A stretch of 64,000 nt of DNA from Prorocentrum cordatum (Eukaryota), in contig CAUYUJ010000311.1 of NCBI GenBank assembly GCA_963575745.1, forward strand, positions 1 to 64,000, in the 5' to 3' direction. The notes beneath the pieces are model-generated. The model was not told where the DNA came from, did not search any database, and was given only the letters and a program-made list of their open reading frames with translations. Made by a program: the position numbers and the translations under genes. Within the stretch, counting starts at the first letter, position 1; each line of letters starts with the position of its first letter. Of the stretch, positions 3,354 to 27,520 are shown piece by piece.

Positions 3354-6300
3354 TCACACAGAACACTCCAACTGATCGACAAACGCAACTGCAAATACCA
3401 TCATTGCTCCAGCAACATTCACGTGCATCGCGTTGCCAACTTGTTTGCAGGTGGCAGCGCGGCTGCGGTCACGGCCGTGGTTAAAAGAACACAAGGGCGC
3501 GCTATGCTGGAGATTCTCCGGCGTCAAGTCGCGCAGCGAGGTGTCGGCAAGCAACGGGAAACCTTGGAGCAACAGGAGCTCGACAGGCATCAACCAGCGG
3601 TGTGCCCACATCGCCCACTCGATATCACAATGACAAGTAATTGTATGCATTAGTTCCTCATCACCATAATGAGCACGACGTGTGGGGTCCTGCGTCAGGT
3701 TCACGACGATGTGTCGTTGGCCTGCTATTCGCTCGTAGCCCTGCAAGAACTCCTCCTCATTGACACTGAGGGCGAGGCGAAACGCACGACCGACATCATC
3801 TGCGCTGGTCTCCGAACTCTGACTGGCAGGACGAGCGCGCGCCCATGCCAGATCCTTGGCAATACAGTCTGGGGTAGCAATCAGGAACTCGTTCCACGAG
3901 CATTGGGGGTCCACCTTCAAGAAACGCAAGTATTCAGACATCTCAATGCGTGGGCGCGCGGTGCCGCGGCGCAGCAGAACAGACCACCTCCGTGGCCGAC
4001 GCACGGGCCACCCAAGCTCCGATGGGCACACCACGAGCGTCATGATATGGTAAACGTCTCCAAGGCATGACTCCAATATCGACGGGTCGAATAAATGGCT
4101 GTTCTCGTGCACAAGAACAGAAGGCATGCCCAACCTCATGAGACACACCCACGCAACGAATGCTTCCACTGTTTTCCCCATGCCGCACTCCCGCTTCCCA
4201 ACTGGAGCCCAATCCACGCATGGGGCCCCTGCGCAGTGGACGCGCCCTGCCCTGTATCTGCAACGCCTCCCGTGCTGCACGCATGGGGCGCGCCCGTCTG
4301 TCGCAGTGGCGGCGCGCCTCCAAAAGCCTGAATCAGTCAATCCGTCCAGCGAGAGCGTGCCTGCATCTCGCTTTTGCTGCAGCATATCACGCGCGTCATC
4401 TGACAGAAATTCAGTGATGTCGGAGAACAAGCATTCAGGCGCACTCGGGTGAATCAAGAGTTCATCCTGGCACTCTGCGTTCAACTCTATGGCAGCCGCG
4501 TGCGCAGGGTGAGCACATGGCCCGCCTGTCGCCAGCTCGACGGCGCGGGCGATCATGCAGAACGCAGTTCCAGGAGCATCGATGCCAGAGAACGCCGTGC
4601 TGTATACCACCTGTGGTAGCTGCTGAGCGAGATGGTCGGTTAGCGATGCTGGCCCGGCCGGCGGCGGCGCCTCCACGCCGCGCACGAGTCGCCGCCGCAA
4701 CTTGCGAGGGCGTCGAGGGCGCAGATGCTCAAAGCAGCTGGCCAACGTGCTCAGCGCCAGTGTAGACCACCCAAACAAGGCTGCCATCCCCGGCGGAAAC
4801 TCGGTTGGGGCCCTTGGGGGGGGATGCGATGGGCACGGCGGCGGCGGCATCGCGTCGCGGCGCGATCGCGCGCGAGGTGGGCGCTCCTCGCCCACGATCC
4901 GCCGCCGCGGTGACCTCGAGGACGGCGGCGACCTCGAGTGCTCGTCGGGCACCCACGCAGGCGGTCGGCCGTCGAGGTCGCTGCGCGCTATGCGCGGCAA
5001 CACAAGGTGCCGACTGCTGCGACCTGTGTCCATCGGCCATGGCCAATCTGGCAAAGTTGCCGGCGACGCTGTCTCTGTTGGGGCAGGGGCCTCCGTCGGA
5101 GGCGACAGCAGCGCTGCCGCGCTGGACGGCGGCACCGCTGCCCCGGAGTCGACGTCGGCCATCAGCGCCGCGCCCATCGCCGCGAGCACAGCAGCGTCTG
5201 CGGCGATGCTTGCGCCATGGCCGCCTTGGGCCATGCGCATGTCACCCTCGCTGGTGGGAGGTGGCTCAGGCTGAGTCTGCTGAGCTGGGGCGGCTGCGGC
5301 TGCGGTGTCCACGGGAGCGGGAGCGGCGGCCGCCGCGGCGGGGTCGCGCGACACCGCCAGCGCAGCGACCGTCGTCGCAGGTATCACCTGGCCTGCGCCG
5401 TCGGCGTCGACGGGCGGATGATCGCTCCCGCGCACGGCGTGCGCCGCGGCGGCTGGCGACCTGGCGGGCGCGTCGGCGCTGGGTGACCACGGAGGCAAAG
5501 TCTCCAGCTCAGCATGGAGCGGACCCGTGGCCAAGTCATGGGCGTCGCCCGCTGTGCTCTGCGGTTGCCCGTCGACAGGACACACAGGGCTCGACGGGGC
5601 CCGGGCCGCGCGCCCAGCGGGCTCCGCAGGGCTCGCTGCGGCAGCGACGGGAGCTGCCTGATGGAGCTGCTCGGCGTCGTCGCGGGCGCGAGGCTGGCTC
5701 GCTTCCGCAAGCGCAGATGCGCAGGCCGAGCCGGTGTCGTGCTGATGACAGCCATCACCCAGAGGAAGCACAGCATCGGTCGCCGCGATAGGAGCAGTCG
5801 CGGCAGAACAGATGATATCGGCGGTGCCGAAGGTGATCCACTTCCCGCGTCTACAGCTCGGGCCGACCTCGATCGCGTTCGCCGCGTCAATCACGGCACA
5901 CGGCGTGAAGATCCAGCAACTGATCCTGGTTGATGCGGAGACGGTGCGACCGGGGTAGACTTGCTGCGCGGCTGACCAGAACGTGGTAGAGGAACCGAGG
6001 TATTCAGTGAAGGCGCCGAAATTCTCTGGAGATAACGAATACGATCCCTCAAATTTTGCTATCCTGCGCGTCTTGTAACTACCGACGGAGGAGACATCAT
6101 CACTGAACAGATATACGTTATCATTAGCAGATAAAAAACGGCATGGTGTTGTCTGCACGACGCCAGTTGTGCGCCCCTCAACCATATCACACAACGTAGA
6201 ACTCGACACAACGAGACCCCGCTGTTTTCCATCAGTCGATACAACGATGGGTGCCTGAGGCATAGTGGCTCGTGTGGCACGCGGCGCAAGTGTGCTGGGG

Positions 6301-6419
6301 CCTAAATGGTTACGGACAGCAGATATGCCATGCGAATGGCCGTCCGTCGCGAGAAGTAGGTAGCAAAACACATGAAGTAGGAGTGCGTTTGGTGGCAGGC
6401 GATTGAAGGAGGCAGCCAT
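3354..6419 (-). CDS. C5-cytosine DNA methyltransferase with N-terminal ASCH/PUA-like domain and Ala/Pro-rich linker (likely start MPQAP near 6263)
   Basis: 1021-aa ORF with the C5-MTase motifs in canonical order: I AFSGIDA (~4590), II AIELN, III FSDITE, IV AGAPCVDW (~4225), VI VHENS (~4100), VIII GWPVRRPRRW, IX RWLMPVELLLLQGFP, X KQVGNAM (~3430). Confidence 0.9.
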   Translation of the reverse strand: MAASFNRLPPNALLLHVFCYLLLATDGHSHGISAVRNHLGPSTLAPRATRATMPQAPIVVSTDGKQRGLVVSSSTLCDMVEGRTTGVVQTTPCRFLSANDNVYLFSDDVSSVGSYKTRRIAKFEGSYSLSPENFGAFTEYLGSSTTFWSAAQQVYPGRTVSASTRISCWIFTPCAVIDAANAIEVGPSCRRGKWITFGTADIICSAATAPIAATDAVLPLGDGCHQHDTGSACASALAEASQPRARDDAEQLHQAAPVAAAASPAEPAGRAARAPSSPVCPVDGQPQSTAGDAHDLATGPLHAELETLPPWSPSADAPARSPAAAAHAVRGSDHPPVDADGAGQVIPATTVAALAVSRDPAAAAAAPAPVDTAAAAAPAQQTQPEPPPTSEGDMRMAQGGHGASIAADAAVLAAMGAALMADVDSGAAVPPSSAAALLSPPTEAPAPTETASPATLPDWPWPMDTGRSSRHLVLPRIARSDLDGRPPAWVPDEHSRSPPSSRSPRRRIVGEERPPRARSRRDAMPPPPCPSHPPPRAPTEFPPGMAALFGWSTLALSTLASCFEHLRPRRPRKLRRRLVRGVEAPPPAGPASLTDHLAQQLPQVVYSTAFSGIDAPGTAFCMIARAVELATGGPCAHPAHAAAIELNAECQDELLIHPSAPECLFSDITEFLSDDARDMLQQKRDAGTLSLDGLTDSGFWRRAATATDGRAPCVQHGRRCRYRAGRVHCAGAPCVDWAPVGKRECGMGKTVEAFVAWVCLMRLGMPSVLVHENSHLFDPSILESCLGDVYHIMTLVVCPSELGWPVRRPRRWSVLLRRGTARPRIEMSEYLRFLKVDPQCSWNEFLIATPDCIAKDLAWARARPASQSSETSADDVGRAFRLALSVNEEEFLQGYERIAGQRHIVVNLTQDPTRRAHYGDEELMHTITCHCDIEWAMWAHRWLMPVELLLLQGFPLLADTSLRDLTPENLQHSAPLCSFNHGRDRSRAATCKQVGNAMHVNVAGAMMVFAVAFVDQLECSV

Positions 6420-6679
6420 CGATGCTTGAAGTAGGAAGGCGCTTAAAGTACGGTAGAATGGGAACCAGAGGCCGTGGGCCTTGGGGTCCAGAAAGACATG
6501 CGTTCAACAAGGAGGAGGAGGGGAAGGGTGAGGAGGAGGAGTGGGAGGAGGAGGAGGAGGAGGAGGAGGAGGAGGAGGAGGAGGAGGAGGAGTTGTAGGA
6601 CCAAAAGGAGTGAGGAGTCGAGCAGGAGGAGGAGGTGGAGGAGGTGGCGGGGGAGGAGGGCGAGGAGAGGGGGAGAAGG

Positions 6680-7262: not shown

Positions 7263-7726
7263 GGGGAGGAGGACGAGGAGCGGCTGAGGAATGCGAGGAG
7301 ATGCTGAGGAGGCCGACGAGGGCCCACCAGACCCACGTCTGGGTGACCCAGAAGCGATCCGCAGCCGCCTCCGCGTGACCCGGATGCGCCCTCCGAGTGA
7401 CTCAGAGTCGCTCCGAAGCTGCCGTGGGGCGATCAAGATGCGCCCCACAGACGTATCCGGGTGACCCAGAGACTGCCCAGGCCCGCATCCGGGTGACCTG
7501 GAGACGAGTCGGACGCTGAGGAGGATGAGGAGGAGGAGGAGCAGGAGGAGGATGACAGATGGTTAGGTACGTGCCAGGAGGAGGACAGATGGCAGGAGGA
7601 GGAGGAGGAGGAGCTGTAATGATCATGAGTACATGTGATATGGGGGAGTGCATGTGCCCGAGCGGCCCGAGCTCTCGCAAGAGGTCACAGGTTCCTCCTC
7701 GTATACGGCTATGATGGCACATCTGC

Positions 7727-9060: not shown

Positions 9061-11306
9061 GCTGCGCGGGCGACGCTGCGATTCCAACGGGTGCGCAGCT
9101 GCTACGTGCGCGACCAGGCATAAGAGAGCGGAGACGGGAGGAGGTTGGTAGAGAGGATGATGATGATGAGGAGGAGGCAGGGGGCGCATCTTGGACTCTC
9201 TGGGGCGCTCGTGGACCAGTTTGTTTTGTTTTCCAATCCTAGGCGATGCCGAATGTTGTCGCTCGAACTTGCCGCATGGGCATCTTGGTTGTACCAGTAT
9301 GGTGTTATCATGGACAATAAAAAACACGTGTTACTATTACTAGCAATATGCATCATCATATTTATGTTTACCACTGGCCGCAGCATTATGCTTATTATTC
9401 GTATCGCTGTTATTAATATGCTCTAGTCTGCGTCGTAGTATCCCTCGTGCTTTCAATGCTATCACTAGTGCGCTTATGAGTATTACCATGATACGTGTTA
9501 TTGTTTCTCGTATTGGGACTCTGCTGGTTCTCATTATTAACATTATTATCATGAGGATTACTAGTATTAGCAGTTGTTTTCGTATCAATCATATGAAGTC
9601 CGAGGAGAAGGGCGATGAGGATGATGAGGAAACGGTTACGAGTGGGGGTTGTGCGGAGGCGGTGGGGAGGGTAAGAGGGGCATGCCCGTCGATGTGCAAT
9701 TCAAGCAGTGGTTTATATCAGCGAGGTGTGCGATCCGAATACTAACCTGTGATGGACAACTCGTTGGTGGCATATTGGAATCACAGTGGGGTCCTCTTGT
9801 GTCTACCTTGGCGGGCCACTGTCATTGATGTTCCACGTGGCAGGTACATGCAACGCTCGAGCCCCCTGACTGGCCCTTCTTGGCGCCCTCTCGGTGCCCT
9901 CGTAGACCCCTCTTGGAGAAGCCAACATGTTTGAACCCCAATAGGAAACATGCACTCAACGAGCTGTAACTCGATCTCTCCTGGGGCCCCTCTCAGCTCT
10001 GAGTAGGAGAGCGAACGATCACTACCGCTGCACCTGGGCCCCGCCACCAGGACCTCAAACAAAAGCACGGGGTGCCGCTGTGTCGCCCGGGCCCCGCCGG
10101 GCAAATTTTCAAGTACCAAAAGGGTGCCTTTTATGGTCCTGCAAAACCTGCCCGGGGTGGGCTGTTCTGTGCCGAGGGGTCATTTGGTCCTTGAAAAACT
10201 GCCCGAGAAACAGTCGCGCTGCCCTGGGCCGTTTCGGGGCCTTCCTGGGCCGCCACCGAGCATCCACGTCTAGTCTTTGCCGCGGCGCACCGCCCCCGCC
10301 CTGCAGCGCGAACCTAGCGGGTCGCTGCGCGATGGGCGAGGGGGGGCCCGCCCTCGACCTCCCCGGGGCGCGCCCAGAGAGTCACGAAACGAAGCCCGAC
10401 AGTGAGGATGTCACGAAGTTTACACCACCCACCACCGCCACCACCTGGCACCGCGACCCCCCTTCTCGGACAGCTGACTCTCTGGCTGGGGATCCTGGAG
10501 GGAGCGCGCGCTGAATTGGATTCGGCAAGAATGAGCGGGACCGCGCTGAATCTATTGTCATGCACCTGGCTCGTGACGATTTGTGTTGGAGGAGGGCCGG
10601 GCGGTGGTGGTGGTGGGTTTCCGCCCAATCTTAGGGCAGTCTTAACACCCTCTAGGGAAAGCCAGAGTCATTAGTTTCACATGGGTGAAATCACGCCTAC
10701 CGAAGCGTAACGCACCGTCTTCGAAATTCTCGGGTGGATAGTCTTGCGGTCGCAAGAGGGCGGCCAATCGACGCCTCCCTCCATCCCCTCCTCCTCCCCT
10801 TTCCTCCTCACCCTGGCCCTCCTGGCTGCGCGCTCGCGCGCGCCTGCGCCTCCGGCTTGATCGACGCCCGGTAGCCAGCGGCGGGCGGGGGCGCGGGTGG
10901 TGCCGGCGGGCCGGCGGGCCGGCCGGCGGTTTCCCACTCGACTCCACCCTCTGCTAACTTTGCTGCAGACTGCCACGAGCTGGCAAGTGAGAGAACCCAG
11001 AGTCGGAGGGCGCAACCGAATGTCATGCCAGAACGAGAAGGGGAGTGGCGAAGAGGAAGGTCGGTGAACTGGGCTGTCGGGGGGAGGTAAGTTTGGGGGC
11101 GCGGGAAGGGCGCAGGCGGATATGGGAGGCGGGGCGGGGGTAGGACGAGCGAGTGAGAGCGAGAGACAAGAAGGAGGTAGCAGGGGAGCGGGAGAGACTC
11201 GGACGATGCAGACATGAGCATCAGCAGACGTCGCAGCGGCGACCCGTCAGACCGTGAGTGCGTAAGGCATTGCAAGCGACGGCAAGGCTGTAACGGCCTT
11301 CTCGCC

Positions 11307-11475
11307 TATGGCAGTGGGCCGAGCAGCATCTGGCACAGCCTGCAGACGCTGAATGAAAACGCATCGGGCAAGAGCAGGATCAGGCTGATCGGATCAGGCC
11401 GCAATCCCGTGCGCGCCGCATCGACGGCAGGGCGACCTGCCATGCCGACGCCGCTGGCGTCAAAGCTGTGGCATG
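11307..11475 (-). repeat. Diverged tandem duplicate of the last ~55 codons of the transposase (second half of the PHD finger plus stop)
   Basis: Translates HSFDASGVGMAGRPAVDAARTGLRPD..LPDAFSFSVCRLCQMLLGPLP* versus HSFCAIGVGMASRPAVDAARAGLRPDLAVLPDAFSGSVCRLCQMLLAPLP* at 11522-11690. Confidence 0.85.
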
Positions 11476-11521
11476 GCGAAAGCACTTGAAAGCGACGACA
11501 AAGTGGGAACGGCCAACTCGC

Positions 11522-14500
11522 CTAGGGCAGTGGGGCGAGCAGCATCTGGCACAGCCTGCACACGCTCCCTGAAAACGCATCGGGCAAGACAGCAAGATCA
11601 GGCCGCAACCCCGCACGCGCCGCATCGACAGCAGGGCGACTTGCCATGCCGACGCCTATGGCGCAAAAGCTGTGCCAGGATAGCTGGCACACGCTGCACT
11701 TATCGACGCGGACAAGCCCACTCGAGCTTGGGTCCGTGCGGCTCGTGCCGCAAAAAAAACAATGTGGCGTGAATGGGTCAACGATTGCTCGATCAGTCGC
11801 CGCAAGCGCGGTCTCCCACATCTTCTTCAGTGCACATACATCGTCGTGAACAGGCTCACGACTGTCCCTGGCTTTTGCCATTCTGACCCCAATTGATGGC
11901 AGTACAATGTGATTGACACTGTCGTGCCAGTACATCCCCCCGCTCGGCACATAAGCGGGCTGCCACCGTCCGCCAACAACTTGCAACGTGGTTCCCCTCC
12001 CATACTTCATGTTCGGTTCCTCCCAGTGGATCAGAAGGACGCTCCGATCACCTTCGACTGTGACATCGGCCATAGTCAGGTTGTACGGCGGAGAGGGCCC
12101 ACCGAGTGGGCCACCGAGCTCAGACCGCCTCCACTCCAGTAATCTAGCGCCTTCCGACGCAGACTCTAACCATGCTGCGAGGACGGCTTCGACGTGAGTG
12201 CGGTTGGACATCAGCGCATCGCAGCGATCGATCAGATCGGCGTCATCCTCTGGGCAATCGCGGGACCCTGGCTCTCCGCCAACCTCCGCCTCTGCCTCGC
12301 GCACGGCCGCCGCCAGGTCGGCGTCGGCGAGAAGAACGTCGTGCTGAAGCTCGCAGACGTTCGCGCTGATCCCAGGATCAGCCTGCTGGGATGGGGCGGG
12401 CGCGCGCGCGCCCTCCCCACCGACCCCATTGAGCGTGCGTGCGCCAGAATTTCCAAGCGACCCAGCCGCGGCGACGAGGCATGTGTTCCTACGCTCCAAG
12501 ACGGGCCGGGCTAGACAGAACTTAGGTGACCTAACCCCGCGCAACCTCCGGCTCCGACAGGACCCCGCGAAACGCAAGTTGGTAAATCCCCGGCGGAGCG
12601 AGCTGGATAAGTTCAAAGCGATTCAGCCGCGCGGCGCCTGTCCGATCCAGCCCCCAACCCGCCCAGGGCCCTGAAGGTCCCAGACGGCGACATCCCACGC
12701 TCCAATAGGCGCTACGCAATCACTTTCAGACCCCGCCCCCACAGGGCCCCAAGTAAACAAGACGGCGAGCTCCAGGAACCCAGGGTCAGACCCCCCGGTG
12801 GGCGAGGAATGGGTTTCAGAGCGATCCAGCCGTGGCGACAAGGCAGATGCACTCCAAGAGGCGAGAGACACCTGACCTCCCCCCCCCCCCCCTTCCCCGC
12901 GGCCCCGACAGGGCCCGAAGTCAAGCGCGCAGGTAGGAGGGGGCAACTGCAAATTATTGGAAGAGGGGTGGCCCATGAGAGGCGTCCTCCGTGCCTCCGT
13001 GCGACGGGCGCACTCGGCCTCGATGCTTGCGGCTAGCCCGTCTCGATCGATGGAAGTCCCCAGCCACGCGTCGTCGTCGTCCCCGTCTCCGAGCTCGGCG
13101 TGGAGTCCGAACCCAGGGCTGTGCTGTTGAACAAGTTCGGCCTCGCGAGCATGTGAAGCAGCCTCTCCGAGAGCATCTTGGCTCTTGGTCGCTGCGGCAT
13201 CGTGTTTCATGTCAGACTCATCCAGCAAGCCTTCGTTCCTCAAAGCTTCGGCCAGGCATCGCAGCAGCTCGGCGTCGTAATGGTCCCTAGGCTCCTCATC
13301 ATCATTAGCTGCAGGTTTGTATTCGTCATCATCGGCTTCGGAACCGTCGCCAGCGTCTCCACCGCCCTCGCCGCCACTGCCTCCAGGATCGCCGCCGTCG
13401 CCGTCGTGCTCGGTTCTCATACGCTTCTCGGCCGGACCCTTGTTCTTCTTGGGCTTGACCTCCGGCGGCATGCGCTGCCTGGGGAAACCGCGGGGAGGGG
13501 GCGCTCGCATTGCCGCGGCGCGCCCCTCCAGCAAGGCTGAACCTAAACGGCGTTGGTCGCTTTCGTTTTGTTTTCGGCCCCCCTCGCTTTTGTCTTGAAT
13601 CGGCCTTCGCCGAAAACGAAGTCCAACCGACAGCGGCCCGCAAAATCGCCAGAAACACCGTTTAGGTCCAGACCTGCCCTCCAGTTTCAGCACGTGGCGT
13701 CCTCAGCCTCTCTCCTACCCCCCCCGTCCGCCGGCCCCTCCTCGCTCGCCTCTTTCCTCGCACCCCCGCTCCTTCCTCGCCTCCTTCCTCGCCTCCTCCC
13801 TCCTCAAAACTCAAACCCAAAAACTAGATCATCCACAAGTGGCTCAAGCCTCAATGAGAATACGTGTGCGGCGTCGGTGCACACGCGCAAATACAAGCTG
13901 CTGGTGTACACGTACCCGTCGTCGCCGTCGCCGACGGGCACGGCGTCGCCCTCGGGCGCGGCCACAGCCACCGCGCCCGCTGCGTGATCGGGTTGCTCGC
14001 GGCCGCGAGCATGCCAGGAAACGGTATGTGATGTCACAGGTATCTCGTTGGCATCGCCTCCTGGACCAATAGGGTGGGCCTGCAACAGCTCGTAGTGCTC
14101 CCCCCAAACATCAAAAGAATGCGTGGGGCGCATCGGCAGCTCAAGCCGAGCTTCGAATACATCGCCGACTCGATCGTACACGTCAACGGCCACCATCATG
14201 CCAAGGGAAAAGTTCTTCTCTGCGCATAAGTACCCACGGGACCCCACCTCAACCGCATCCTTGCCAACGAACCAACACCTTGAGAAATCTGGCAACTTAC
14301 AGGAGCGATGCCACAACGTATTGTACGCCTCTCTCCAAAGACAAGCATGAGTCTTCTCTGGTGGGTGAACTGGCGCAGGTAAGATGCGTGAATCATCATA
14401 TGCGGTGCAAGGGTTCCATCTATCAGGGTTGCCAACGACGTGGTTATAGCTGTCCGGGCTGGCGTTAAGGGTTTCATCCAGGAGATCTCTCGCAAACTCT

Positions 14501-17500
14501 TTGATGGCACTGAACTTCAACGACGCCCCTCTTTTTCCGACCCCTAACGCCTTCTTCAATGACGCCCTCGAGGATATCAGCGGGAGAGAAATATTCCTGG
14601 CTCGCTCGCAGTTCACTTTGATCAACGAGTTGACGCCCTCCAGCTCTTGGGTGTCCAGGAGCGTCCACATGGCCATCGCCGCGGCGATGACGTAGACGCC
14701 TCGTGGAGGCACCGATCCATCACGCGCGGCCTGTTCGACATCTGGTCTAAACGCAACCACCACCTTAGCTGTGTTCACATCGAGCTTACCATGTGCTTCC
14801 ATATCCAAGACCATCTGGGCAACTACCCGACGCGCGTCGCAACGGTAGCCGGGCTCCCTGTAAGCAAACCACACCAACTGCAAAGGGAATGTCGCCAGAG
14901 GCTCACTTACCCGCCGGTGGAAGCTGCAGCAGTTATGGCATATCATAAGCGCACCCAGTTCCAGGAAATACTCAGCACCGTCGTCGTCGCACATGGTTAC
15001 CCAGTCGTGATCGCAAAGAGCGCGCGACCAGTCGGTCGCTATGTCCACGCACCGTGAAAACACCAATCTGGCGAGCATCCCCCCGTCAGTTGCAAGATCG
15101 CCAGTCGGCTTCTCGAGGGTTCGCTTAAACCTGTCCAGGGGGGCCGTCGCAACGCAAGCCAGATCCAATGTGCGCCAGAACGCTTTGTCGCGCACCGCTT
15201 TCATAATGTCCTCAGCAGGAGGGGGGGCGGGGCGGGGGGGGAGGAGGAGAACGACGACGACGAGGAGTCGGAGTCGACGAGGACGACGACGAAGGTTGGG
15301 GGAGGAGGAGGATCGGAGAAGAGTGGAGGAGGACGAGGGTAGGAGTCCACGGTATGAGGAGTGGGGGGCAGGAAGAAGGGGCCTGTTTCCACTGGCTGAC
15401 TCTCGCTGAATGCGCCTGCAAGGACTCCACGGCGGGGTCGTCCGCATGGCCGCGACCCTCGGCGGCGTCAGCTGGCCTCCAGGGCCCCAGGCCAGCAGCA
15501 GGGGCAGCGGAACCGACCGGCAAAGGCCAAGACAGATGCGGTCCTGACACCCCTTGGGCCTCGGGGACCCCATCATCGGCCTCGACGGCCAGCGGCGTCG
15601 ATGACAATGATGCGACGATGGGTCCCCCGCGGCCCGCGGCGGGCCAGGAACGCATCTCCCCGGGCTGGGAGCTGTGAGAGCGCGTTGGGAGTCAGTCAGG
15701 AGTCGGAGAGTAGGACAGAGTAGGAGCACAGTAGGACACTCAGTAGGAGTGGAGCGCGGGACCCCAATGGGGCCCCCCCATCTTGTAGAGGAGAAGAGAA
15801 GAGCAAGAGAGAGCGAGAGCGGAGAGAAAGGAGTGCAGCGAAAGCCTGCGGTCTCGACGAGCTGCGGCTGCGCGGGCGCGGCACTGCGGCGTCAGATCGC
15901 ACCTGCAGTTCGCGTGCATGCCAAACGTGGGTTCAACTTGCACCATGCCAGCTTGCTGGAGTAAAATTTGGAATATCCCCACGGATCCCCAGCGGCCGGA
16001 CAGCACCCGTTGTGGCAGATTCTTGACGTGGCGAAGTGCACTCTCTGGACCATTGCAGGACTTCCACGCCTCGAACACAGAACGCGCTCCGTCTCGCCAA
16101 ATCTGGTTGAGTTTGGACAAGCTTGCGTAGTAGTGCCATTTAGGGCGCATGTTGTCAGGAAGCCGGTTGTGCAGGAAATGGTCAGTGCGTTTCAAGAAGT
16201 CGTTATGTATCAATGCATGCCCGTGATGCAGGCAAGAGGTGTCCACCACGATCGTGTTCTGAGAGCCGGCGATGTCCCCCTTCAAGAGCTTCTTGAAGAC
16301 GACCTGACTCGGGCCGAGTCGAGGGGGCGGCCGGCCGCGGCGCCAGGCGGAGGAGGAGGAGGAGGGGGCGGAGGCGGAAGAGGAGGCGAGGCGGAAGGAG
16401 GAGGGGGAGGAGGAGGAGGAGGGGGAGGGAGGGCGAGGGCGGGAAGCGGGCTGGCGGCCACTGGCGGAGGATAAGGAGGGGGGAGGAGGAGGAGCAGGAG
16501 GAGGGAGGAGGAGGAGGAAGCCGAGGGGAGGGGGAAGGGGGGGGTACGGTGGGAGGGTCGGCGGATGGATAAGGTAAGAGGAAGAGGAGTGGAAGACCAA
16601 CGACGACGAGGATGGCCCCGACCTGGTCTGGGCCGCCGTCAGAGACGTAGTTCAGGATTTTCCAATTCACTGCTACCTCAGGGTGCTCGCCAGACGTAGT
16701 CGCTCCCATCTCAGACCACGAAAACCCAACGTTCTCACAAACTTTGCGAACCATGCGGTAGGTGCCCAGTCCAGTGCCGTCAGCTGCAACTTGAAGATCC
16801 AAGATGCGACAGCGTTGGACAGACGAGTCGACCATGCGGTCGCGGATGTGTTCGGAGCCCAGCGCGTGCGAGCCGACGTAGATGCTGTGCAACTCTGTCG
16901 TCATCAGCTTGGACCGGTGCCAGACGCCGCTGTTCGTGGCGTCCGACCTCAGCGTGTGCATTTGTAGGCTGCACACAGTCCTCGCAGCGACACGAGCATC
17001 GGCATCACGAAGTAGTTGCGCCTGATATTCTGCAAGCTGAAGGGCAGCCTCAGCCTCGTTGGCGACGTGGAAGTCCAGAAATGCAGCCTGCAAGCGGGAG
17101 CCGAAGTTGACCTCTGTCCTGCACACCGATTGGTGCGATATGTCTTGCAGGACGACGGCGCCAACAGATGCAGCGGCAACGTTGGCCATGTTCTTCCTCA
17201 TTGCCAGGGCGCCTGCGCCAGGGAGCGTGAGCCGCGTGTCTTTTTTCCCCCGCACGATGTCGAAGCATGGCTCGGCACGGCGGGCGCTGCCAGTGTGCAC
17301 GGCGAGCTGCTTCTCAAGGTCGCCGATGTGCTTTGCGTAGGCCGCCCTAACGGCAGCGGCAGCCAACTTGACGCTCTTGAGTTCGGCCGCGTATGCGTCG
17401 AGCTGAACATCTCGAAACTGAATCGTCGACACGAGCGCCTCCTGAGACATTGAAGCATAATTGCCCTGTAACCTCCGGCGCCTGGCAATCGCATTCCCAC

Positions 17501-17999
17501 TCGATGACGCAGCAACAATAGACGATGGGCTCGCCGTCGACGAAAGCGAATGCGATGGTTCACTCTCAACAACCTGACTGTGGGACGGCGATGGCGGCTG
17601 CGGCCCCTCCAGAGGCAGCGGCGCAGCGGGCAATGGGCGGATCGCACGCGCCCTCTGCTCGCGCCGGTGCGCCAGCTCTGCGCGCCACTGCGCCGCATGC
17701 GCGGCAGAGAACAATCCGCGTGCACACACAGCAGAGGCGATAGCTGGAAACTGATCTGCAAACGCGTAAGTGGCGTCTCGCACCCACTGGGGTTGCAGGC
17801 GCCTGAGAAACGTTGACTGGCAAACCCTGGGCGGCTGACCCGACGCGGCAGCCAAGAGATTGGGCAGCGTTGCACGGTGTATCAAGAGCTCGTCACCATC
17901 GCCGCAACAGATCACGTGCGTCTGCACAGCGAAGCCGATCCGACGGCGTTCAACAGGGCTTAGTATGACTGGCGGCGGCGCCGCCGCCGCTGGGAGCAT
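11522..17999 (-). CDS. Spliced hAT-like DDE transposase with C-terminal PHD finger
   Basis: Exon 1 (17999-16623) has LRSDATN (D1) and YVSDGGPDQ (D2). Exon 2 (from 16303) has SCLHH (CxxH) and GRWGS (cf. hAT TRWNS). The exon from 15210 has DTQELEGVNSLIK (E, cf. ERxFS). An acidic/basic exon lies at ~13480-12920. The last exon has CFFC..CSVC..WHSFC..VCRLC (C4HC3). Introns 16622-16304 (GT-AG) and 15382-15211 (GC-AG) join in frame; other junctions are uncertain. Confidence 0.75.
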
Positions 18000-18021
18000 G
18001 TTGAGCCAAAATGGCTACGGA
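18000..18021 (-). other. Genomic relic of the dinoflagellate spliced leader abutting the transposase ATG
   Basis: Minus strand reads TCCGTAGCCATTTTGGCTCAAC|ATG, against DinoSL DCCGTAGCCATTTTGGCTCAAG: 21/22 identical. Confidence 0.95.
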
Positions 18022-18449
18022 GGAGGATGGGGCCTGGAGCTGTTGGAGTAGGTGGCTGGTGGCTACGCGCGAAGAACCCACCCACCCACCGCTCGACTTC
18101 TAGGGGGGGGCGCTTTAAGGCTCTCAGCCTGAACTCCCGGGCTCACCGAGCCCGAGCGAAGTGACTCCCCTGACCCTGACCCCGACCCCGACCCCCGGAC
18201 CCCCGCCCTCCAAGGGGGTCTGCCGGTCTGCCAGCAACGGCTCTCGTCAGCAACGGCTGCGGGCCTGCTCCTGAGCTCCTGCTGGGGCGCGGTTGTCCCG
18301 GGCCGGCGGCCCGTGGGCTCCAAGTAGGCCGAAATCTGGATTTGGGGAATACAAATCTTGTCTTGTGCCAAAAAAGGGGTCTGCCATATCGTTTGTGCAG
18401 CGTCTCCACTCTCCACCATTCTCCACCAACGCTCCGAATGTTTGTGGCT

Positions 18450-19540
18450 TCCACGAGATGTCTGAAATTTACGGTTTCTGTGTCTGCGACGAAGGGGTAC
18501 GAGGCTCGTAGATCGAGTTTGTACGTTTGCGAGGCTGTCCCAGTCGAAGTGCGGTGTCCTTCGCTTCGCTCCAATGGGCCCCCAGGGCCCAGGCCCCGGG
18601 CCCCAGGGTCTAGGTAGGGCAGCAGCAGGGGGCCAAGGGGACAGGGGACGCGACAGGGCGAGAGGCTCGAGGCGGCGGCGCAGATGTGACGGAACACCCA
18701 TGCTGGTCGGTCGGTTGTCAGCGGTCAGCGGCAATGTCCCAGAAAGCCTCTGCCCGTGCGAATTCTGCTTACCCCCCTGCAAGCAAGCCTCACGATAGCT
18801 CCAAATTCCGATCGCGGCGAGCGCGACCTGGTCCGCGAATCCGACCCAGATCTCCGACGTGCCAGCGCGAGACTCGGGCCCCGGGCCCCAGCCCTGGCCC
18901 GGGCTCGGGGATGAGGGGGGGCCCGGGGCAGGGGGGGAGGAGGAGGAGGAGGGGTAGGAGGAGTCCTCAGGAGGAAGAGAGGAGGAGCGCGGCCGCAAAT
19001 TTGTTTGGATGCTGAGCTTTTCCAGAACAGTTGGTTAACTCAAGATCGCGATCGGGGGAGGCGGTGGAGGAGGAGGAGGCAGGAGGGGGAGGAGAAGGGA
19101 GAAGAGAGGAGGAATGTGGAAACGATGCGCAGGTGAAGCTCACGCGGGGCCACTGTGGCCATCGAGGCGGCCATCGCAAAACGACCCAGCGAACAGAATC
19201 AGAAAAGCGATCGATGGGGTCGAGAGCGCCAGTGGGCCAGGGCCTAGGGGCCCTAGGGCCGAAATCTCGACGTCGGCGAGTCGGATGTCTGGGAGAGGCA
19301 GCGGCGCCGCGTGCGCGTGCACCCTCACGCTCACGAAGTGCCCCAGATCCTCCACCTCCTCCGCCGCGAAGGCCTTGGACACAAAAAACTTCGAAGCCCC
19401 CTCGGCGCTGCTCTCCTCATCCGAATCAATCGAGCCTCTCAAGGGACCCGTCTCCAGCGCGGGCCGCTGCGTCGGCGGCGCGCGCGCGGGAGCGTGGTGC
19501 GCCGCCGCTGCCATCCCTGAAGAAATGGATTGACGGGCGG
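18450..19540 (-). CDS. Probable multi-exon gene or pseudogene of unknown function
   Basis: Protein-like segments ~19530-19250 (SIDSDEESSAEGASKFFVSKAFAAEEVEDLGHFVSVRVH), ~19060-18993, ~18875-18680 (SEIWVGFADQVALAAIGIWSYREACLQ) and ~18580-18460, separated by GC/GGA-rich intron-like tracts. Confidence 0.35.
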
Positions 19541-20596
19541 GCTCGGGGGTGAGCTGCAGGGGGGGGGGTGCCTGGAGAGGGGCACCGTCGACTTACGGCG
19601 CCCGCTCAACAGCGCGAGTTGCCGCTTAAAGGCCGATGCCATGACCTTCCCGGGCAGCCCCCCCTGCCGCCCACCCCCTGAGATCTGACGGGGCCGGCGG
19701 CCGAGCAATGGGGCGCCGAACGCTGCGGCGTGGTCTCGATCTGACCAGCTACGGATCGATCGTCGGTCGGGTGTCGTCTTGCGCAGCCGACGTTCGGCGT
19801 CGTCGTCGCCGCCGCCGCGGCCCTCGAGTCGGCGACGTCGGCGTGGGCATTGTCGCGACGTCGCCATCGACAACGTCGCCGCCGCCGCCGCCGTCGTCGG
19901 CGTCGATCGTCGACTCTCCCTCCTCCACCTGGCAGTGCCTGGCAGGTCCTAGCCCCTCGCCTCTCGACTTCGCGCGTGCGATGGAGGAGCGGGGGGGGGG
20001 CGGTGCAGGGTGGCGCCCCGCAGCACCCGCTGCAACTTGGAGGGGCCTAGAGGTCCTCAATCGGAGTGGGGCTTGGCACCTCCGAGTCGCACGCGGATTG
20101 TCTGTGGAGCGCACCCCCCCGCCCCCCCCCCCCCCTCCCATCGATCACCGCCCCTCCCGCGGGGCAGGGCAGGGGCAGGCCGACTCTGGACAAAGAGAGG
20201 GGCTGTGGATTTGGCCATGTTTTTAGGCGACCTCTGCATAGCAACAACTTGATTGAACAATGGAACGGCGACTGCTGCAAGGGGCGCCGCACCTTCAGGC
20301 TGAACGGGGAGGGGGTGGGGTCCGGGTGAGGGATGAGGTCTACCATCGCGAGGTTCAGGGACGGGGTGAGATGAGGAAGAGAAAGCGCAGTCGGTCGGAC
20401 CGCCTGCCAAGCGGACGGGGGGCCGGGCGTGCACCGGCGCGGGCAAACCCCGATGCACCGCGCAGTGGTGGCCATTGGGCGAAGGAGGACGGCGCTATAC
20501 ACACTTACCGCAACCTCCCCTCCCCGCGAAAGGCGGGCGCCAACATTCCGAGAGTGCATGCCAAAAAAGGCTGCGCAGCCGACGCGCATGAAAACC

Positions 20597-21373
20597 CTAG
20601 TAAAGGAAATTCTGAGACGCAACCGGGTGCCTGCCAGCGCGCAGCTGAACGAGGGTCTCGCGGCCTCGGGCGTTGCGATACCCACGGCAAGGCTGGATCA
20701 GACCAGCGAAACGCACCTCACCGTAGCAGCCGCAGATGATACACACCATAACCGAACGGTGCCTGCGTAGCATATGGGTGTTGTGGGCGCGGTGGCGATT
20801 GGCACCCATGTTCCCATAGTCGGGCACGTCCGTCAATAATGGGTGAGCCCACGGAAGGTTCTGCGGCCACCCGAACTGGTTCGCCCACGCAGCACCAGCA
20901 TGAGCGGCGACCGCCACGACCTGGCCAGGAGGAGCGGCAGCCTGAACAGGTGCGGCGTGTGCTGCTGGTCCTGGCGCCTGGCCCGCAACGTTCGCGAGCC
21001 GCGGGACATCCGCCACCGCGCCGCGCGCCTGGTAGGGCGCGTTCGAATGCTCCAAGACAGGCCGGGAGGCCGCCAGGCCCCCGACGGTCAAAGAGGGCCC
21101 CTACGACAGGCAAATGGGCCCCCAAGACAGCCCTAGAGGCCCCAACAGGCCCAAGGCCCCTATCATGATAGTCACGAGAGGGTCCCTCCTCGTCTTTGCG
21201 CTCCTCCTTCTCCTCCTTCTCCTCCTCTCCTCCTTCTACTGCTGCGCGGGCGCGGCGTCGGCGAGCGCCGCAGGCAGCTGGATAATTCGGCGGGAAGTCT
21301 GCCGCGAGACCAACTGGCTGCCCGTGCTCAAACGTCACTCGGTATGGCTGGGGCGAGCGGCTCCTGGCGGCCA
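20597..21373 (-). CDS. Small, probably spliced gene ending in a Cys/His (Zn-finger-like) module resembling the LINE C-terminus
   Basis: MAARSRSPQP.. from ~21373. The 20597-21091 ORF ends HNTHMLRRHRSVMVCIICGCYGEVRFAGLIQPC..GRETLVQLRAGRHP. Confidence 0.45.
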
Positions 21374-21531
21374 TGAGGCACGAGGTGCGAGGTGCGCGAA
21401 TGCGAGGGCAGGGCCCTGTGCGGCGCCGAGCTGGCACAAAGCACAAAGTGCGCAATGGCTGCGAAGGTGGTGGCAAAGATTGAAACGCGATCACGATGCT
21501 GGAAAAGAGGGGGCCTGCTCCCCCGCCTCAT

Positions 21532-21808
21532 CCAGGGCCTCTCAAGGCCTCGCCGTTGCATTCGGAGGCCTTCGGCCCTATCCGCCTGACCCCGCGATCC
21601 GCGTGAGAGGCGCGCCGAAACCCCCCAGGCTGACGCGGGGGGCGGGGAGGGGGGGGGGGGGAGCAGGAGAAGGAGAAGGATGAGGAGCAGGAAGACACGG
21701 CGGAGATGAAGCTTGGGGGAACTCCGCGCACCTCTCACACCATCGCGGGGTCAGGTGGATTTGACCGAAGGCCTCCGCGTGTAACAGCGAGGCCCTGAGA
21801 GGCCTTGG
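21532..21808. repeat. Foldback (MITE-like) element with ~88-bp inverted arms
   Basis: 21532-21620 matches the reverse complement of 21721-21808 (ccagggcctctcaaggcctcgccgttgcattcggaggccttcgg..cctgaccccgcgat..gtgagagg). An extra partial arm lies at 21818-21844. Confidence 0.75.
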
Positions 21809-21930
21809 CCCGAAGAATTTCGGCACACCTCTCACGCGGATCGCTTGGATAAGCACCGCGTGCTGAACTCGTCAAGTAGCATATGATGCATGAACCAAAA
21901 AATGCGACGCCAAAGTGTGTGGCGTTGTAC

Positions 21931-21965
<35 letters not shown>

Positions 21966-22509: not shown

Positions 22510-25500
22510 GAGTGAACATTCCCAGCCGCAGGGTTACCACAAGGCGAAGTTCCTGCTGGACGAGAAGCGCCCAGAGCTCTTTGTCAGCACTCCACCCTGC
22601 GGGCCCTGGTCGATAATGCAGAACGTCAACCAGCGCGACGACAGGCAGAGGCAGAACCTTCGCAGGAAGCGCCTCAAGAGCCAGCGGATCTTCGAGAACA
22701 ACAAGAGGCTCATAGAGCACCAGGTGCTCAACCTGAACGGCTCTGCCCTCGCCGAGCAGCCACACAACAGTCGGTCGCGGCAAAAGACCTGCTGGAAGGA
22801 TCTCCACAAGATACTCCCTTACGAGGTGATCGTGGACGGCTGCGCCTGCGGACTGAGAGCTCCCGATACAGGCGAGCTCATGAAGAAGCGCTGGAAGTTT
22901 CTCACTAACGACAAGAGGATCTGGGTGGCCCTACAGCCGCTACAATGCCGTGGAGGACACTACCACGAGGAGATTGAGAGCAGCCTGAGGACTGAGGCTT
23001 CGGGCTACTACCCCAAGATGCTGCGCCGCCGGATCCTCCGAGCTCTGACCAAGAGCCAGAACAAGAACTACTTCGAGGACGAGGTTGCGAAGTGCCTCTG
23101 CATGGCAGCTACCCAGCAGCCACCGACGGAGCCTACGCTTGTGGAGGATGAGCCGTCGATTCCACCTCAAAACGGCAAGGAGACTCACGACCTCACCAAA
23201 GAGACGATCAAGAAGATAGAGAGCTACATCAGGCTGGTGCACACCAACCTTGGACATCTACCCCGAGCTCATCTACTACGATACCTTCGCGACCGTGGTG
23301 CTCGCCCAGAGGTACTACGACTGGCCAGGACATTCAAGTGCGACATCTGCGACGCGCACCGACCACCGACAAAGCGGCCACCAGCCTCATCAGCAGAGCA
23401 GCCACAGAACGGTCACGAGGTTCTCTTCGACGCCTTCTCATGGATCCGTCGCAGCAAGAAGACGAACGTGATGGCGCTGGCGATCCTCGACGCCGGCTCA
23501 GACATCCTCTACGTGCGACTGATCGACGAGAAAGAGATCCCGGGTACGACTCGTCAAGTTCGCGCCGGCGACCTTCGACATATTTTTTGCGACAAAGTGG
23601 TTTCCTTGGATGGGACGCCCGAAGGCCATGCGCTACGATCCCGCTGGCAGCGCCATCTCCAACGAGTTCCGCGAGTGGATCGAGAGCCAGGGAGTCTACT
23701 GTCTTCCATGCGCGGCCGACGCCCACTGGCAGATCGGCAAGATTGAGCGCGCGATCGAAGCTATCAAGGAGGCCCTCGACGCTTTCGACGAGATGGTCTC
23801 AGCTGAAGTGCCTACCAGCGAGATGATTGGACTCCAGACAGCTGCCAGGAGCGACCTGATCAGGATTGACGGATTCAGCCCACTGCAGCGCTATGCTGGA
23901 CGGACCCCGACGGGGACCACGGTTAACTTGTCCGACGAGCCGAACAACCTGCCCCTCATCAGCGCCGAGCTGCAGGATGGCACCTTCAGCAGGGACGCCC
24001 AAGTTCGACGACTGGCGCGGCTGGCTCACATCCAGACCCAGAACTCCGACCGAGTCAAACGGGCGGAGGCCGCGCGCTTCAGGTCCTTCAAAAGGTACGA
24101 GACGGGCGACCTGGTCTTCGTCTACAGGAGGCCCCCACCAGGAGCCTGGATCAAGAAGGGCCAACCTCGCTCCATGCCTGGGCGAGGCCGCTGGTACGGA
24201 CCTGGACGAGTACTCTGCCACGAACCATCGAGCTCGGGACATCGACCTGGTCTACCTGGGACAGTGGTCAACATCACACTGGCTGGACGCCTCTATCGAG
24301 TTGCCCCAGAACAGCTTCGACCTGCTACGCCCTCCGAAGAGGCGATGGACTCTCTACGCTCGCGTCGCGAGCAGCCGGGGACATGGACCTTCGGCGACGC
24401 CCAGAAGCTGCTCGACCAGAACGAGGTGATCGATCTTTCGAACGAGCCCCCGCCTACTGGCGAGGACCTGGCCGCTGACGACGGCGAGTCTGTCAGCGCT
24501 CGCACCTTCAAGGGCAACGCGAGCGGGCCCTGGGCCATTCCTGAAGACGAGGAGCTACCTGTGCCACGAGGAGATCCTCGGAGTTTGGGCCCAGGAGGAG
24601 GAGGCGGAGGTGGTGGAGCCATCGAGGCACCCCCTGGACTGGAAGAGTGACCTCTCCCTGGACCGCGACCTCCAAGGCGACTACGGAAGAAGGGCAATCC
24701 CTGGGCCGAGTCGGCCGAGGTCCAAGACCCTCTCATACAGCCAGCACAGCCAGAAGCACCACCACGCATTCCACAAGAGGAAGGCCACGAAGCTGGACAC
24801 CAAGAAGAAGCCGAGCTACCTGCAGAAGAAGAGATCGCCATGGAGGCCCCTCCCGACGACGACCAAGCAGAGCGTCCGTCTCAGCAACCCATTGCGGTGG
24901 ACACGGACGACGACCTCGACGAGACTACGGCGCCTGACATGAACGACAAGCGCCGGCTGCGGTCGCCTGGCTCGACCGAGCCACCTGCCAAGAAGCAGCG
25001 GATCAACGTCGCGACCCAGAAGGCCTTCTCCTACGACCTGCAGGAAGGCAACTTCTACGGGGACTACGCCTACAGCGTCCAGCAATACGACGAGACGAAG
25101 GAGGACGACGAGCTCATCGTGCTGGACATCCCCGTCAGCAACGAGCACGCGTTCATGGCCTACATGGACAATCCCAGCAATTTCGTGACATCACAGGCCC
25201 GGAAGGGCCGAGTGGAGGTTTCTTTCAAGAAGGCGACGCCTGAGGAAAAGAAGCTGCTACTTGAGGCCCAGCAGAAGGAGCGCACCTCGGTCCTCAGCGC
25301 GAAGGCTGTTAGGATCCTCAGCCGCAAGGGGATCGACCTGGCGCGCCTGCTGCGCTGTCGTTTCGTGCTGACCTGGAAGATGGACGAGCAGGACAACGTG
25401 CTCCGACGCAAGGCCAGATTGGTCGTGCTTGGTTTCAGCGACCCCGATCTACTACACCCACGGACAGAGTCACCAGTTGCCTCAAGACGTGCACGACAAC

Positions 25501-27520
25501 TTCTACTGGCCATGGCAGCAAGACACAAGTGGAAGCTGGAGAAGGCAGACGCAGCGACAGCCTTCCTCCAGGGCGAGACTGACGAGGAGAAGAGGAAGAT
25601 CTACGCCGACCCGCCGAAAGATGTTCGTCAGGCATTCGGCATGAAAGATGACGATGTACTACAGTTCCTCAAGCCGATGCATGGGTTTGCACATGTTCCT
25701 CGCAAGTGGTGGCTCCATTTCAAGGACACGCTCAGAACGCTGAAGCTGGAGATCGTGCAGTGCGAACCTTGCGTCTGGGTCATCCGAGACGGCAACAAGA
25801 TGGTTGGCATGGTCATCCTACACGTCGATGATATGATGATTGCCGGCGATCACAAGAACTCGGCCTTTCTCAAGAAGCGTCAGGAGATTCAACAAGTGTT
25901 TGAATGGACACCCTGGGAGAGCCGAGCGTTCGTGCAGTGTGGCATCAGCATTCGACAGAACGAGGATTATACCTGCAGCCTCGCACAGGACAGCTACAGC
26001 CTGAACGTGGAGCCCATCAAGATACGACGTGGGAGGAAACCCACAGAAGGAGTTTCAGACAAGGAGAGATCAGACCTACGAGGCCGACTTGGTACAGTCG
26101 GATGGCGAGCTCAGCAGTCGGCCCCGTGGCTGAGCGCCGAAGTCTCTCTACTTCAAGCGGAGATACCTACGGCCACGGTCTCAACCATCCAGAAGATCAA
26201 CAAGCCTGTCCGCACCATGAATGACACCACCGACGTAGTCATGCTCATCCCGGCCATTGCGCAGATTGCCGTGGTTGGCTGGGGCGATGCAGCATGGGCC
26301 GCCCGTATCACTGGCGAGTCCCAAGGCGGAGAAATCGTTGTTCTGGCCCCCCTATCCTTCCTGAGTGGCGCGACAGAGACGGTTGCGCCTATCTCTTGGA
26401 GATCATGCAAGCTACCCAGAGTGGCCAGAAGCAGTACGAGTGCGGAGGTCCAGATGATGACGGAGACCCTGGACGAGATCAGTTACGTGCGACTGTTCAT
26501 CTACGAGCTGGAGTGCGGTCAAGTGGTGGACTACACCAACAAGCAGCACGTGAACGACGCCATCTCATCCTGCCCTGGCGTACTTGTCACAGACGGTAAG
26601 TCGGGCTACGACGCGATCGAAAAGAGTGAGTCAGCTGGTCTCGCACTACGTGACAAGCGGACGAGCATCGAGTGCTCAGGCATTCGACAGCAGAAGGAGC
26701 AGACGGCCCTCCAGATACGCTGGGTACACAGCGACGCCATGTTAGCCGACGGATTGACCAAGGATCGTGCCGCCAAGGTCTTGCTGGAGTTCTTCAGATC
26801 GGGCCAACGCTGGAGACTCGTGGACGACCCACTTCACCGCAGTGCCCGGAAGCACAAGACCGAGGGCTTAGACAAGCTCGACCATGGCAAGCCGATCTCG
26901 GACGATGACGAGGACGCTATGCTGGAGGCCCTGATCTACTACGCCCGCGACAACCCCGACGAGCAGGAGAGCCCTGCTGGAGATGCTGCCCTGTGGGGCA
27001 TGATTCAGCCGCTCACGCGCTCTGTGCTTTCTGTAAATTCAGTTGCCAGAGGCAGGTCTCGATGCCGTAACATCGATCTTTAGCTCTTGGGTATGCAAAT
27101 CACAGCCCAGAGCCTGCCTCTTCAGAGCCTACTTACGACAGATGGCCCCTAGAGGCCTAGCGTGATATATATATATATATATGCTTCAGGCTCCAAAGGA
27201 GCCTCGTGTACGTTAGCCAAGCGTTTCCCGGCGAATCGGGCCTCCCAAGACTCCAGGTTTCAGCAAACCCTGCTTAGTAGGCCCTTCGTTTCCCTAGCAA
27301 CAAGTTGCAACATATATTATAAACAGAACAAGCTCGACCGAAACCGTTCTGGCTCAAGACCTTGCAGCGTCACAGCGACGCTGGATTTCTGGTGTGCGTC
27401 CAAGAGACGCAGAGCAGCGAACTGCCCGCTAACAAACAGATCCTGCTCCCTACCATAGTGTGATCAGCATCGCACAGACACTGCCCTATCATAGACGACC
27501 TGTTTGAGACGAGCCCAACA
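22510..27520 (+). mobile_element. 5'-truncated, disrupted Ty1/copia LTR retrotransposon (DNMT-like - integrase - RT - RNase H)
   Basis: Integrase HHCC (HTNLGH..CDIC) and D-D-E (FDAF, RYDPAG, KIERAI). Copia RT (CRFVLTWK, KARLVVLGF, ADAATAFLQG, HVDDMMIAG). RNase H (WGDAAWA, SSTSAE, TDGKS, LADGLTK). IN precedes RT, the copia order. There is a +1 frameshift at ~23595 (gacaaagtgg) and an in-frame TGA at 24648-24650. Confidence 0.92.
27001..27520 (+). repeat. Candidate 3' LTR (TG...CA)
   Basis: Begins TG after tggggca and ends cccaaCA. Contains (TA)n, a TATA-like tatattataaa and an SL-like 22-mer. No 5' LTR is in the window to confirm it. Confidence 0.3.

What the first reader, a model, noticed from the sequence alone, without database searches (positions are those of the whole stretch)
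17997..18021. Full-length spliced leader hard-wired in DNA directly before the transposase start codon
Seen: 21/22 DinoSL match immediately followed by ATG. The single change is the terminal G to C, which removes the AG that would otherwise serve as a trans-splice acceptor. Established: SL relics mark dinoflagellate genes recycled through mRNA. Inference: a DNA-transposase gene was retroposed and later gained introns, or the element encodes its own SL mimic to gain translation without trans-splicing.
Basis: partly seen in the sequence, partly recalled or inferred. Interest (0 to 1): 0.7.

Follow-up and report, generated by a model that had tools for sequence, protein, structure and literature searches.

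The report
Spliced-leader relic before hAT-like transposase
A nearly perfect DNA copy of the short leader that dinoflagellates splice onto their mRNAs sits directly before the start codon of an intact cut-and-paste transposase gene; it is most likely the familiar scar of mRNA recycling in an unusual gene, not a way to avoid trans-splicing.

Summary
The match is real: 21 of 22 DinoSL bases on the minus strand (18021-18000), then ATG 17999; 0 of 100 shuffles gave one. The ATG opens an inferred six-exon, 1,609-residue gene with no internal stop. A homolog folds like Hermes (hAT) transposase. The leader has two AGs, and the internal one, which papers name as the acceptor used in recycled genes, is intact behind a pyrimidine-rich tract. 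The lost terminal G therefore does not block trans-splicing. No AT-rich promoter precedes the leader, unlike the exact leaders I found in AT-rich viral contigs. Intron 1 seems shared with a 36%-identical relative, which argues against 'retroposed, then gained its introns'. Two more worn leaders lie in the window, and 1 of 2 distant homologous loci has one. No element ends were found and no RNA run was listed, so function is untested. The scan had already noted relics in Transib-like transposons, copia LTRs and LINEs of this genome. Verdict: ordinary relic, mildly unusual place.

The parts
18000..18021 (-). DinoSL relic, 21 of 22 bases; internal AG at 18016-18015 intact, TTTT core intact, terminal G replaced by C
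18016..18034 (-). Pyrimidine-rich run before the internal AG (14 of 18 bases, partly the relic's own first bases); candidate trans-splice acceptor region
   Evidence: top of 43 AG sites in 18500-17990, next best 13 of 18; weak lead
16623..17999 (-). Exon 1 (459 aa): start codon, N-terminal domain, coiled coil, first two catalytic Asp motifs (RSDATN at 351, SDGGPDQ at 453)
16304..16622 (-). Intron 1 (319 nt, GT-AG, phase 0); position apparently shared with relative P0050
   Evidence: inferred, no RNA
15846..16303 (-). Exon 2: CxxH motif (CLHH at 483) and GRWG motif (562)
   Evidence: 3' end inferred from homology to P0050
15383..15671 (-). Exon 3: variable linker and start of the helical insertion domain; its 5' boundary is the least certain
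13850..15210 (-). Exon 4: helical domain and third catalytic motif (DTQELEGVNS at 894)
12995..13478 (-). Exon 5: basic and acidic low-complexity linker
   Evidence: boundaries inferred from frame
11522..12382 (-). Exon 6: C-terminal region with PHD-like Cys/His cluster (CFFC 1531, HSFC 1560) and stop
6295..6316 (-). Second, more worn relic (4 mismatches in the 21-nt core; internal AG lost, terminal AG kept), about 30 nt before ATG 6263
3354..6263 (-). Neighbouring same-strand ORF (969 aa) with a weak C5 cytosine methyltransferase match; possible cargo of the same element, link not shown
   Evidence: E 0.37; E 0.038, below Pfam cut-off

Best explanation
The 22-mer is a relic leader. An ancestor of this transposase gene (or its 5' end) was copied from a trans-spliced RNA back into DNA, and the leader has since stood as part of the gene, probably within a large multi-gene hAT-like element. 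It most likely works as relics do in host genes: transcription starts upstream, the host spliceosome adds a fresh leader at the intact internal AG, and the mRNA reads new 22-nt leader + 15-nt relic + AUG. The TTTT core may also help as a basal promoter element. Loss of the terminal AG is drift or leaves a single acceptor. Shown: the match, the open gene model, the family's Hermes-like fold, the intact internal AG. Inferred: splice sites, use of the AG, the age of the relic, membership of a mobile element.
For: Papers place the re-splicing site of recycled genes at the AG ending nucleotide 7 of the leader (PMC3229502 passages, PMC5585692 passages). That AG is intact and has the highest upstream pyrimidine count of 43 AGs. 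Relics are common: over 20% of genes in two Symbiodinium genomes, many with introns. Three matches at up to 4 mismatches lie in this window against a shuffle mean of 0.01, 0 of 200 shuffles with two or more; one precedes the neighbouring methyltransferase-like ORF. A distant homolog, L122 (about 30% identity), has an exact 11-nt leader start, 5 mismatches over 21, on the coding strand 221 nt before its probable ATG (0 of 200 shuffles). P0050 has a 6-residue insertion exactly at intron 1, as expected if a gene caller mis-spliced an intron at the same place, so that intron looks older than any recent full-mRNA retroposition. No A-run of 5 or more in 11521-6400 and only 7-8 nt low-complexity flank repeats, so no sign of a fresh retrocopy.
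Against: No transcript evidence at all. No convincing TIR or 8-bp TSD was found, so an element is not shown. The other homolog with 5' sequence, L120, has no coding-strand relic (best 8 mismatches of 21): 1 of 2, close to the background rate of relics. No sister copy of this gene could be examined. The pyrimidine margin is small (14 against 13 of 18) and includes leader bases. 21 of 22 identity is high for an old relic unless it is selected. The shared-intron argument rests on one predicted protein without its DNA, and the second candidate shared intron is ambiguous in the alignment. Published relics are best conserved 50-100 nt before the start codon, not abutting it.
Confidence: 0.5

Rival explanations
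1. One-off recent retrocopy: a trans-spliced but not yet cis-spliced pre-mRNA of an active element was reverse-transcribed and inserted here, giving an intron-keeping, TIR-less transposase gene with a young leader.
For: High identity of the relic. Intron-retaining retrogenes are described in dinoflagellates. No TIR/TSD found. Explains an old intron together with a young leader.
Against: No poly(A) remnant or convincing flanking direct repeat. No old 5' UTR lies between leader and ATG. A relic also precedes the neighbouring ORF and a distant homolog.
Confidence: 0.23
2. One reading: a fully spliced mRNA was retroposed and all five introns were gained afterwards.
For: Introner-type introns are reported as abundant in some dinoflagellates. 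The splice junctions show short direct repeats. Distant homolog L122 has introns at other positions (read by eye).
Against: Intron 1 position appears shared with P0050 at 36% protein identity. Five intron gains against one base change in the leader needs either very fast gain or selection on the leader.
Confidence: 0.1
3. Hard-wired leader: transcription starts at 18021, so the element makes an SL-headed mRNA without trans-splicing.
For: Full length and near-perfect. The strategy looks real elsewhere: 136 distinct leader contexts in 119 viral loci, 134 with the terminal G, 120 of 134 behind an AT-rich tract. A leader on an RNA virus was proposed as mimicry (as cited in PMC9651163).
Against: Upstream 25 nt are 32% AT and look like an acceptor tract, not that promoter type. 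The terminal G is lost. A nuclear, intron-containing gene already has the spliceosome at hand, so there is little to gain (inference). A genomic leader would not by itself carry the SL RNA's cap modifications (recalled).
Confidence: 0.1
4. The leader came from an unrelated 5' fragment of another retroposed RNA or gene-conversion event that happened to land at the ATG.
For: Leader-headed mobile elements are present: a worn leader lies in the LTR-like end of the copia element at 27337.
Against: Exact abutment to the start codon on the coding strand; no foreign sequence between leader and ATG.
Confidence: 0.07

Closest known systems
Relict DinoSL of recycled (retroposed) dinoflagellate genes (Slamovits and Keeling 2008, seen only as cited in PMC3229502 and PMC5585692; Song et al. 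2017, PMC5585692; review PMC6050394)
   Same: Genomic copy of the 22-nt leader on the coding strand upstream of an ORF, internal AG and TTTT core intact, gene has introns.
   Different: Abuts the ATG with no intervening UTR, and the gene is a DNA transposase; the paper searches listed no title or abstract on that setting.
Hermes and the hAT superfamily of DDE transposases
   Same: Predicted fold of homolog P0037 matches Hermes (Foldseek E 9.4e-8; VIA Z 14.9, rmsd 4.1, 394 aligned); conserved D, D, CxxH, RW and E motifs.
   Different: About 1,600 aa with an extra N-terminal domain and a PHD-like C-terminus; no Pfam hAT domain hit; no TIR or TSD found for this copy.
DinoSL on dinoflagellate RNA-virus transcripts, proposed as mimicry (Levin et al. 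2017, seen only as cited in PMC9651163)
   Same: A selfish element carrying the host leader.
   Different: That case is an RNA virus; here it is a nuclear, intron-containing gene with an intact acceptor.
DNMT-carrying dinoflagellate retrotransposons (PMC5890265, search listing and start of abstract only)
   Same: A methyltransferase-like ORF next to mobile-element genes.
   Different: Neighbour here is a DDE transposase; co-mobility not shown and the methyltransferase match is below cut-off.

Membership tests
DinoSL relic (mRNA recycling) | Match to the 22-nt leader above chance | tested here: met
   21 of 22; 0 of 100 shuffles
DinoSL relic (mRNA recycling) | On the coding strand within 500 nt upstream of an ORF | tested here: met
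   Directly before ATG 17999 of a 1,609-aa model
DinoSL relic (mRNA recycling) | Internal AG available for re-splicing | tested here: met
   AG at 18016-18015 intact
DinoSL relic (mRNA recycling) | mRNA carries a new leader joined at the internal AG | not testable with these tools
   No RNA run could be laid on the locus
DinoSL relic (mRNA recycling) | A parental copy without the relic | not testable with these tools
   No whole genome held
SL RNA gene | Exact leader exon ending in AG followed by the GT of the SL intron, usually in arrays (recalled) | tested here: not met
   Ends in AC and is followed by ATG; single near-perfect copy
Hard-wired leader as in AT-rich viral contigs | Exact leader including terminal G | tested here: not met
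   C here; G in 134 of 136 viral contexts
Hard-wired leader as in AT-rich viral contigs | AT-rich promoter-like tract immediately upstream | tested here: not met
   AT 0.32 against median 0.88 of 134; background GC differs strongly, so the comparison is rough
Hard-wired leader as in AT-rich viral contigs | Transcription start at leader position 1 | not testable with these tools
   Needs capped 5' end data
hAT transposase | RNase H-like core with large helical insertion, Hermes-like | tested here: met
   On homolog P0037 (26% identity to the model, E 1e-46), not on the window protein itself
hAT transposase | Conserved D, D, E plus CxxH and RW motifs | tested here: met
   Invariant or near-invariant in A1/A2 and present in the model; residue-by-residue correspondence to Hermes is recalled, not computed
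hAT transposase | C-terminal hAT dimerisation domain (PF05699) | tested here: inconclusive
   No Pfam hit in 18 members; Atlas neighbours with PF05699 at 0.86, a lead only
hAT transposon (element) | Terminal inverted repeats with 8-bp target duplication | tested here: inconclusive
   3 and 3 low-complexity GC-rich candidates only; one end may lie before window position 1

The most novel reading that the evidence does not exclude
Large multi-gene hAT-like elements of dinoflagellates give each of their genes a built-in leader cassette that is kept by selection, and for the transposase it defines the transcription start so that the mRNA is leader-headed without trans-splicing, the same strategy that AT-rich giant-virus contigs appear to use.
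Probability: 0.1. Interest if true: 0.75.

Novelty: new member of a known kind. Interest (0 to 1): 0.3.

Why it matters
As a relic it is one of thousands per dinoflagellate genome. The modest interest is the setting: a cut-and-paste transposase gene should lose its element ends when retroposed, so a relic on an intact transposase with an apparently old intron says that DNA transposons in these genomes are rebuilt or refreshed through RNA, or that the relic is kept as an acceptor or promoter. The single marked base makes the locus a clean test of how relics are used: one 5' end read tells leader + relic (trans-spliced) from a lone genomic leader.

Tried and rejected
Own-genome search for sister copies: no genome held. 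Exact relic+ATG pattern in metagenome contigs: 0 matches. Word-index protein searches with exon 1: nothing at longer or near lengths, although HMMER found 706 relatives of exon 4; weak evidence only. Pfam: no family for exons 1, 4, 5, 6 and a sub-threshold DUF6431 hit on exon 2; PDB sequence search hit only C1/PHD fingers weakly. Family search in viral contigs: 0 of 61 pattern hits confirmed; methyltransferase-like ORF: 0 of 2. TIR/TSD scans: nothing convincing. Leader-encoded peptides in 204 fetched proteins: none. First exon-2 end (15903) was rejected for 15846 because P0050 conserves the next Cys motif. My idea that many homolog fragments begin at intron 3 was dropped: they begin at a conserved Met just upstream. 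An 8-nt leader-like word at 18068 and gapped matches at 55646 and 32625 were not counted as relics. The pattern that three window relics each keep exactly one AG is post hoc (chance 0.19 for this copy; L122 keeps the internal AG and a shifted terminal one) and is not used as evidence. PMC12721341 holds no passage on leaders. No supplementary files were read; supplements of PMC5585692 or PMC8045281 might list transposase genes among relic-bearing genes.

Full report
Observation. The DinoSL consensus matches the window once at up to 3 mismatches: minus strand 18021-18000, one mismatch (last base C for G), with ATG at 17999; 0 of 100 shuffles gave a match. The consensus was recalled and then seen in PMC5585692 and PMC9651163 passages. 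The host is inferred to be a dinoflagellate from the relics and from GC donors at 4 of 5 inferred introns (GC donors are 25-58% in the core dinoflagellates of the table in PMC10666404). The closest homolog carries a green-algal source label, which I did not check.

The gene. ATG 17999 follows an in-frame TAG inside the leader; the next Met is residue 184, and P0050 aligns from residue 19 at 37% identity. HMMER with exon 4 found 706 relatives at E up to 0.001, of which 150 were listed. Long relatives map colinearly over exons 1, 2, 4 and 6. Six exons (17999-16623, 16303-15846, 15671-15383, 15210-13850, 13478-12995, 12382-11522) give 1,609 residues with no internal stop; all junctions are inferred from frame and homology. 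D, D, CxxH, RW and E motifs are invariant or nearly so in alignments of 18 and 14 sequences. The model of homolog P0037 (pLDDT 77.9) matches Hermes best: Foldseek E 9.4e-8, all ten top rows Hermes; VIA Z 14.9, rmsd 4.1 over 394 residues, next fold Z 8.4. Pfam names none of it. So 'transposase' holds at family level. No credible TIR or 8-bp TSD was found between 18022-21950 and 1-11522; an end could lie outside the window.

The acceptor argument. The leader holds two AGs. PMC3229502 (passages) states that relics are truncated after nucleotide 7, at an AG, where the new leader is spliced on; PMC5585692 (passages) agrees. That AG (18016-18015) is intact and ranks first of 43 AGs for upstream pyrimidines, 14 of 18 against 13, a weak lead. 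Loss of the terminal G therefore leaves trans-splicing possible, and the predicted mRNA still ends its leader in CAAC before the AUG.

Is it hard-wired? A scan of viral contigs with the 20-nt core returned 119 loci (flanks fetched in full for 80). They hold 136 distinct contexts, 134 with the terminal G and 129 with A at position 1. Of 134 with enough upstream DNA, 120 have at least 72% AT in the preceding 25 nt and 130 lie in loci under 45% GC. Most contig names are giant-virus bins; I did not verify hallmark genes. This looks like true hard-wiring. The window's copy differs on both counts (terminal C, 32% AT), though background GC makes the second comparison rough.

Other relics. Three sites match at up to 4 mismatches of 21 in the window; my approximate block shuffles gave mean 0.01, 2 of 200 with one site, none with two. 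One lies about 30 nt before a same-strand ORF with a sub-threshold C5 methyltransferase match; one lies behind a TATA-like tract after the copia reverse transcriptase ORF. A metagenome scan confirmed 3 of 186 candidate stretches as family members. L121 is 99.8% identical to part of L122 and lacks the 5' end. L122 has a relic 221 nt before its probable ATG; L120 has none on the coding strand. That is 1 of 2, near the published background of over 20% of genes.

Order of events. P0050, a named-source predicted protein at 36% identity, has a 6-residue insertion exactly at intron 1 that the other aligned relatives lack. Its first and last residues can be encoded by codons starting GC and ending AG, as expected if a GC-AG intron at the same place was mis-called (inference; DNA not seen). 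A second shared intron is ambiguous. If intron 1 is that old, a recent retroposition of fully spliced mRNA is excluded. Either the relic is old and kept, or it came from an intron-retaining RNA, which is described in dinoflagellates. No A-run or convincing flanking repeat marks a fresh retrocopy.

Mechanism. Most likely (0.5) a standing relic that serves as trans-splice acceptor, and perhaps TTTT core promoter, of a transposase gene in a large element. Rivals: recent intron-keeping retrocopy (0.23), retroposition then intron gain (0.1), hard-wired leader (0.1), chance landing of a foreign leader (0.07). No transcript data could be examined, so use of any site is untested.

Comparison and novelty. 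It meets the sequence-level definition of a DinoSL relic and is not an SL RNA gene. Paper searches (listings and abstract starts) showed no report of relics on DNA transposase genes, and none on leaders in giant-virus DNA; the library lacks most subscription journals. Papers seen: passages of PMC5585692, PMC3229502, PMC9651163, PMC10666404, PMC8045281, PMC6050394; a null term search in PMC12721341; PMC5890265 listing only; Slamovits and Keeling 2008 and Levin 2017 only as cited. Earlier scan notes report relics in Transib-like elements, copia LTRs and LINEs, and giant hAT-like elements with methyltransferases, on other pieces of this genome; they are leads, not support. Verdict: new member of a known kind, interest 0.3.

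Noticed in passing
L001-L119 (viral contigs; e.g. L012, L025, L075, L106): Exact 22-nt DinoSL in 134 of 136 contexts, mostly in very AT-rich contigs named as giant-virus bins, behind AT-rich tracts with recurring motifs and mostly 10-130 nt before an ATG; several per contig, some in tandem. Looks like a genuinely hard-wired host leader and is more striking than the finding itself. No paper on it was listed; the scan noted it before (e1-5545961).
   Followed up: partly
L069 and L059: Leader-headed long ORFs with RNA-dependent RNA polymerase matches (E 4.8e-7 and 0.015), in line with DinoSL-bearing RNA viruses.
   Followed up: partly
window 27337-27358 (+): Worn leader (4 mismatches) about 15-25 nt behind a TATA-like tract, downstream of the copia reverse transcriptase ORF 24651-27083, in what looks like a 3' LTR (about 27062-27437); no matching 5' LTR found.
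   Followed up: partly
window 3354-6316 (-): 969-aa ORF with a divergent C5 methyltransferase-like C-terminus and its own relic; with the ORF at 496-1593 it may belong to one large element with the transposase.
   Followed up: partly
window 11270-11677: Tandem duplication (about 200 nt, 81% identity) of the transposase's last coding stretch into its 3' flank.
   Followed up: no
window 18329-19024 and 2294-2550: Short shared sequence blocks upstream of the transposase and upstream of the ORF at 496-1593.
   Followed up: no
window 7700-9080: Array of about 40-nt palindromic units rich in ATGCA/TGCAT between the transposase and the methyltransferase-like ORF.
   Followed up: no
window 20597-21374 (-): Small probably spliced ORF ending in a His/Cys cluster like that at the end of the LINE-like ORFs near 36000; no leader relic seen before it.
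   Followed up: no
window 30003-36886 (+): LINE-like ORFs by eye (coiled-coil ORF, RT-like ORF without Pfam support), followed by about 17 kb of trinucleotide low-complexity sequence with an N gap.
   Followed up: no
P0181: A 2,038-aa family member whose transposase core begins near residue 1,040; its long N-terminal part has no clear Pfam match.
   Followed up: partly
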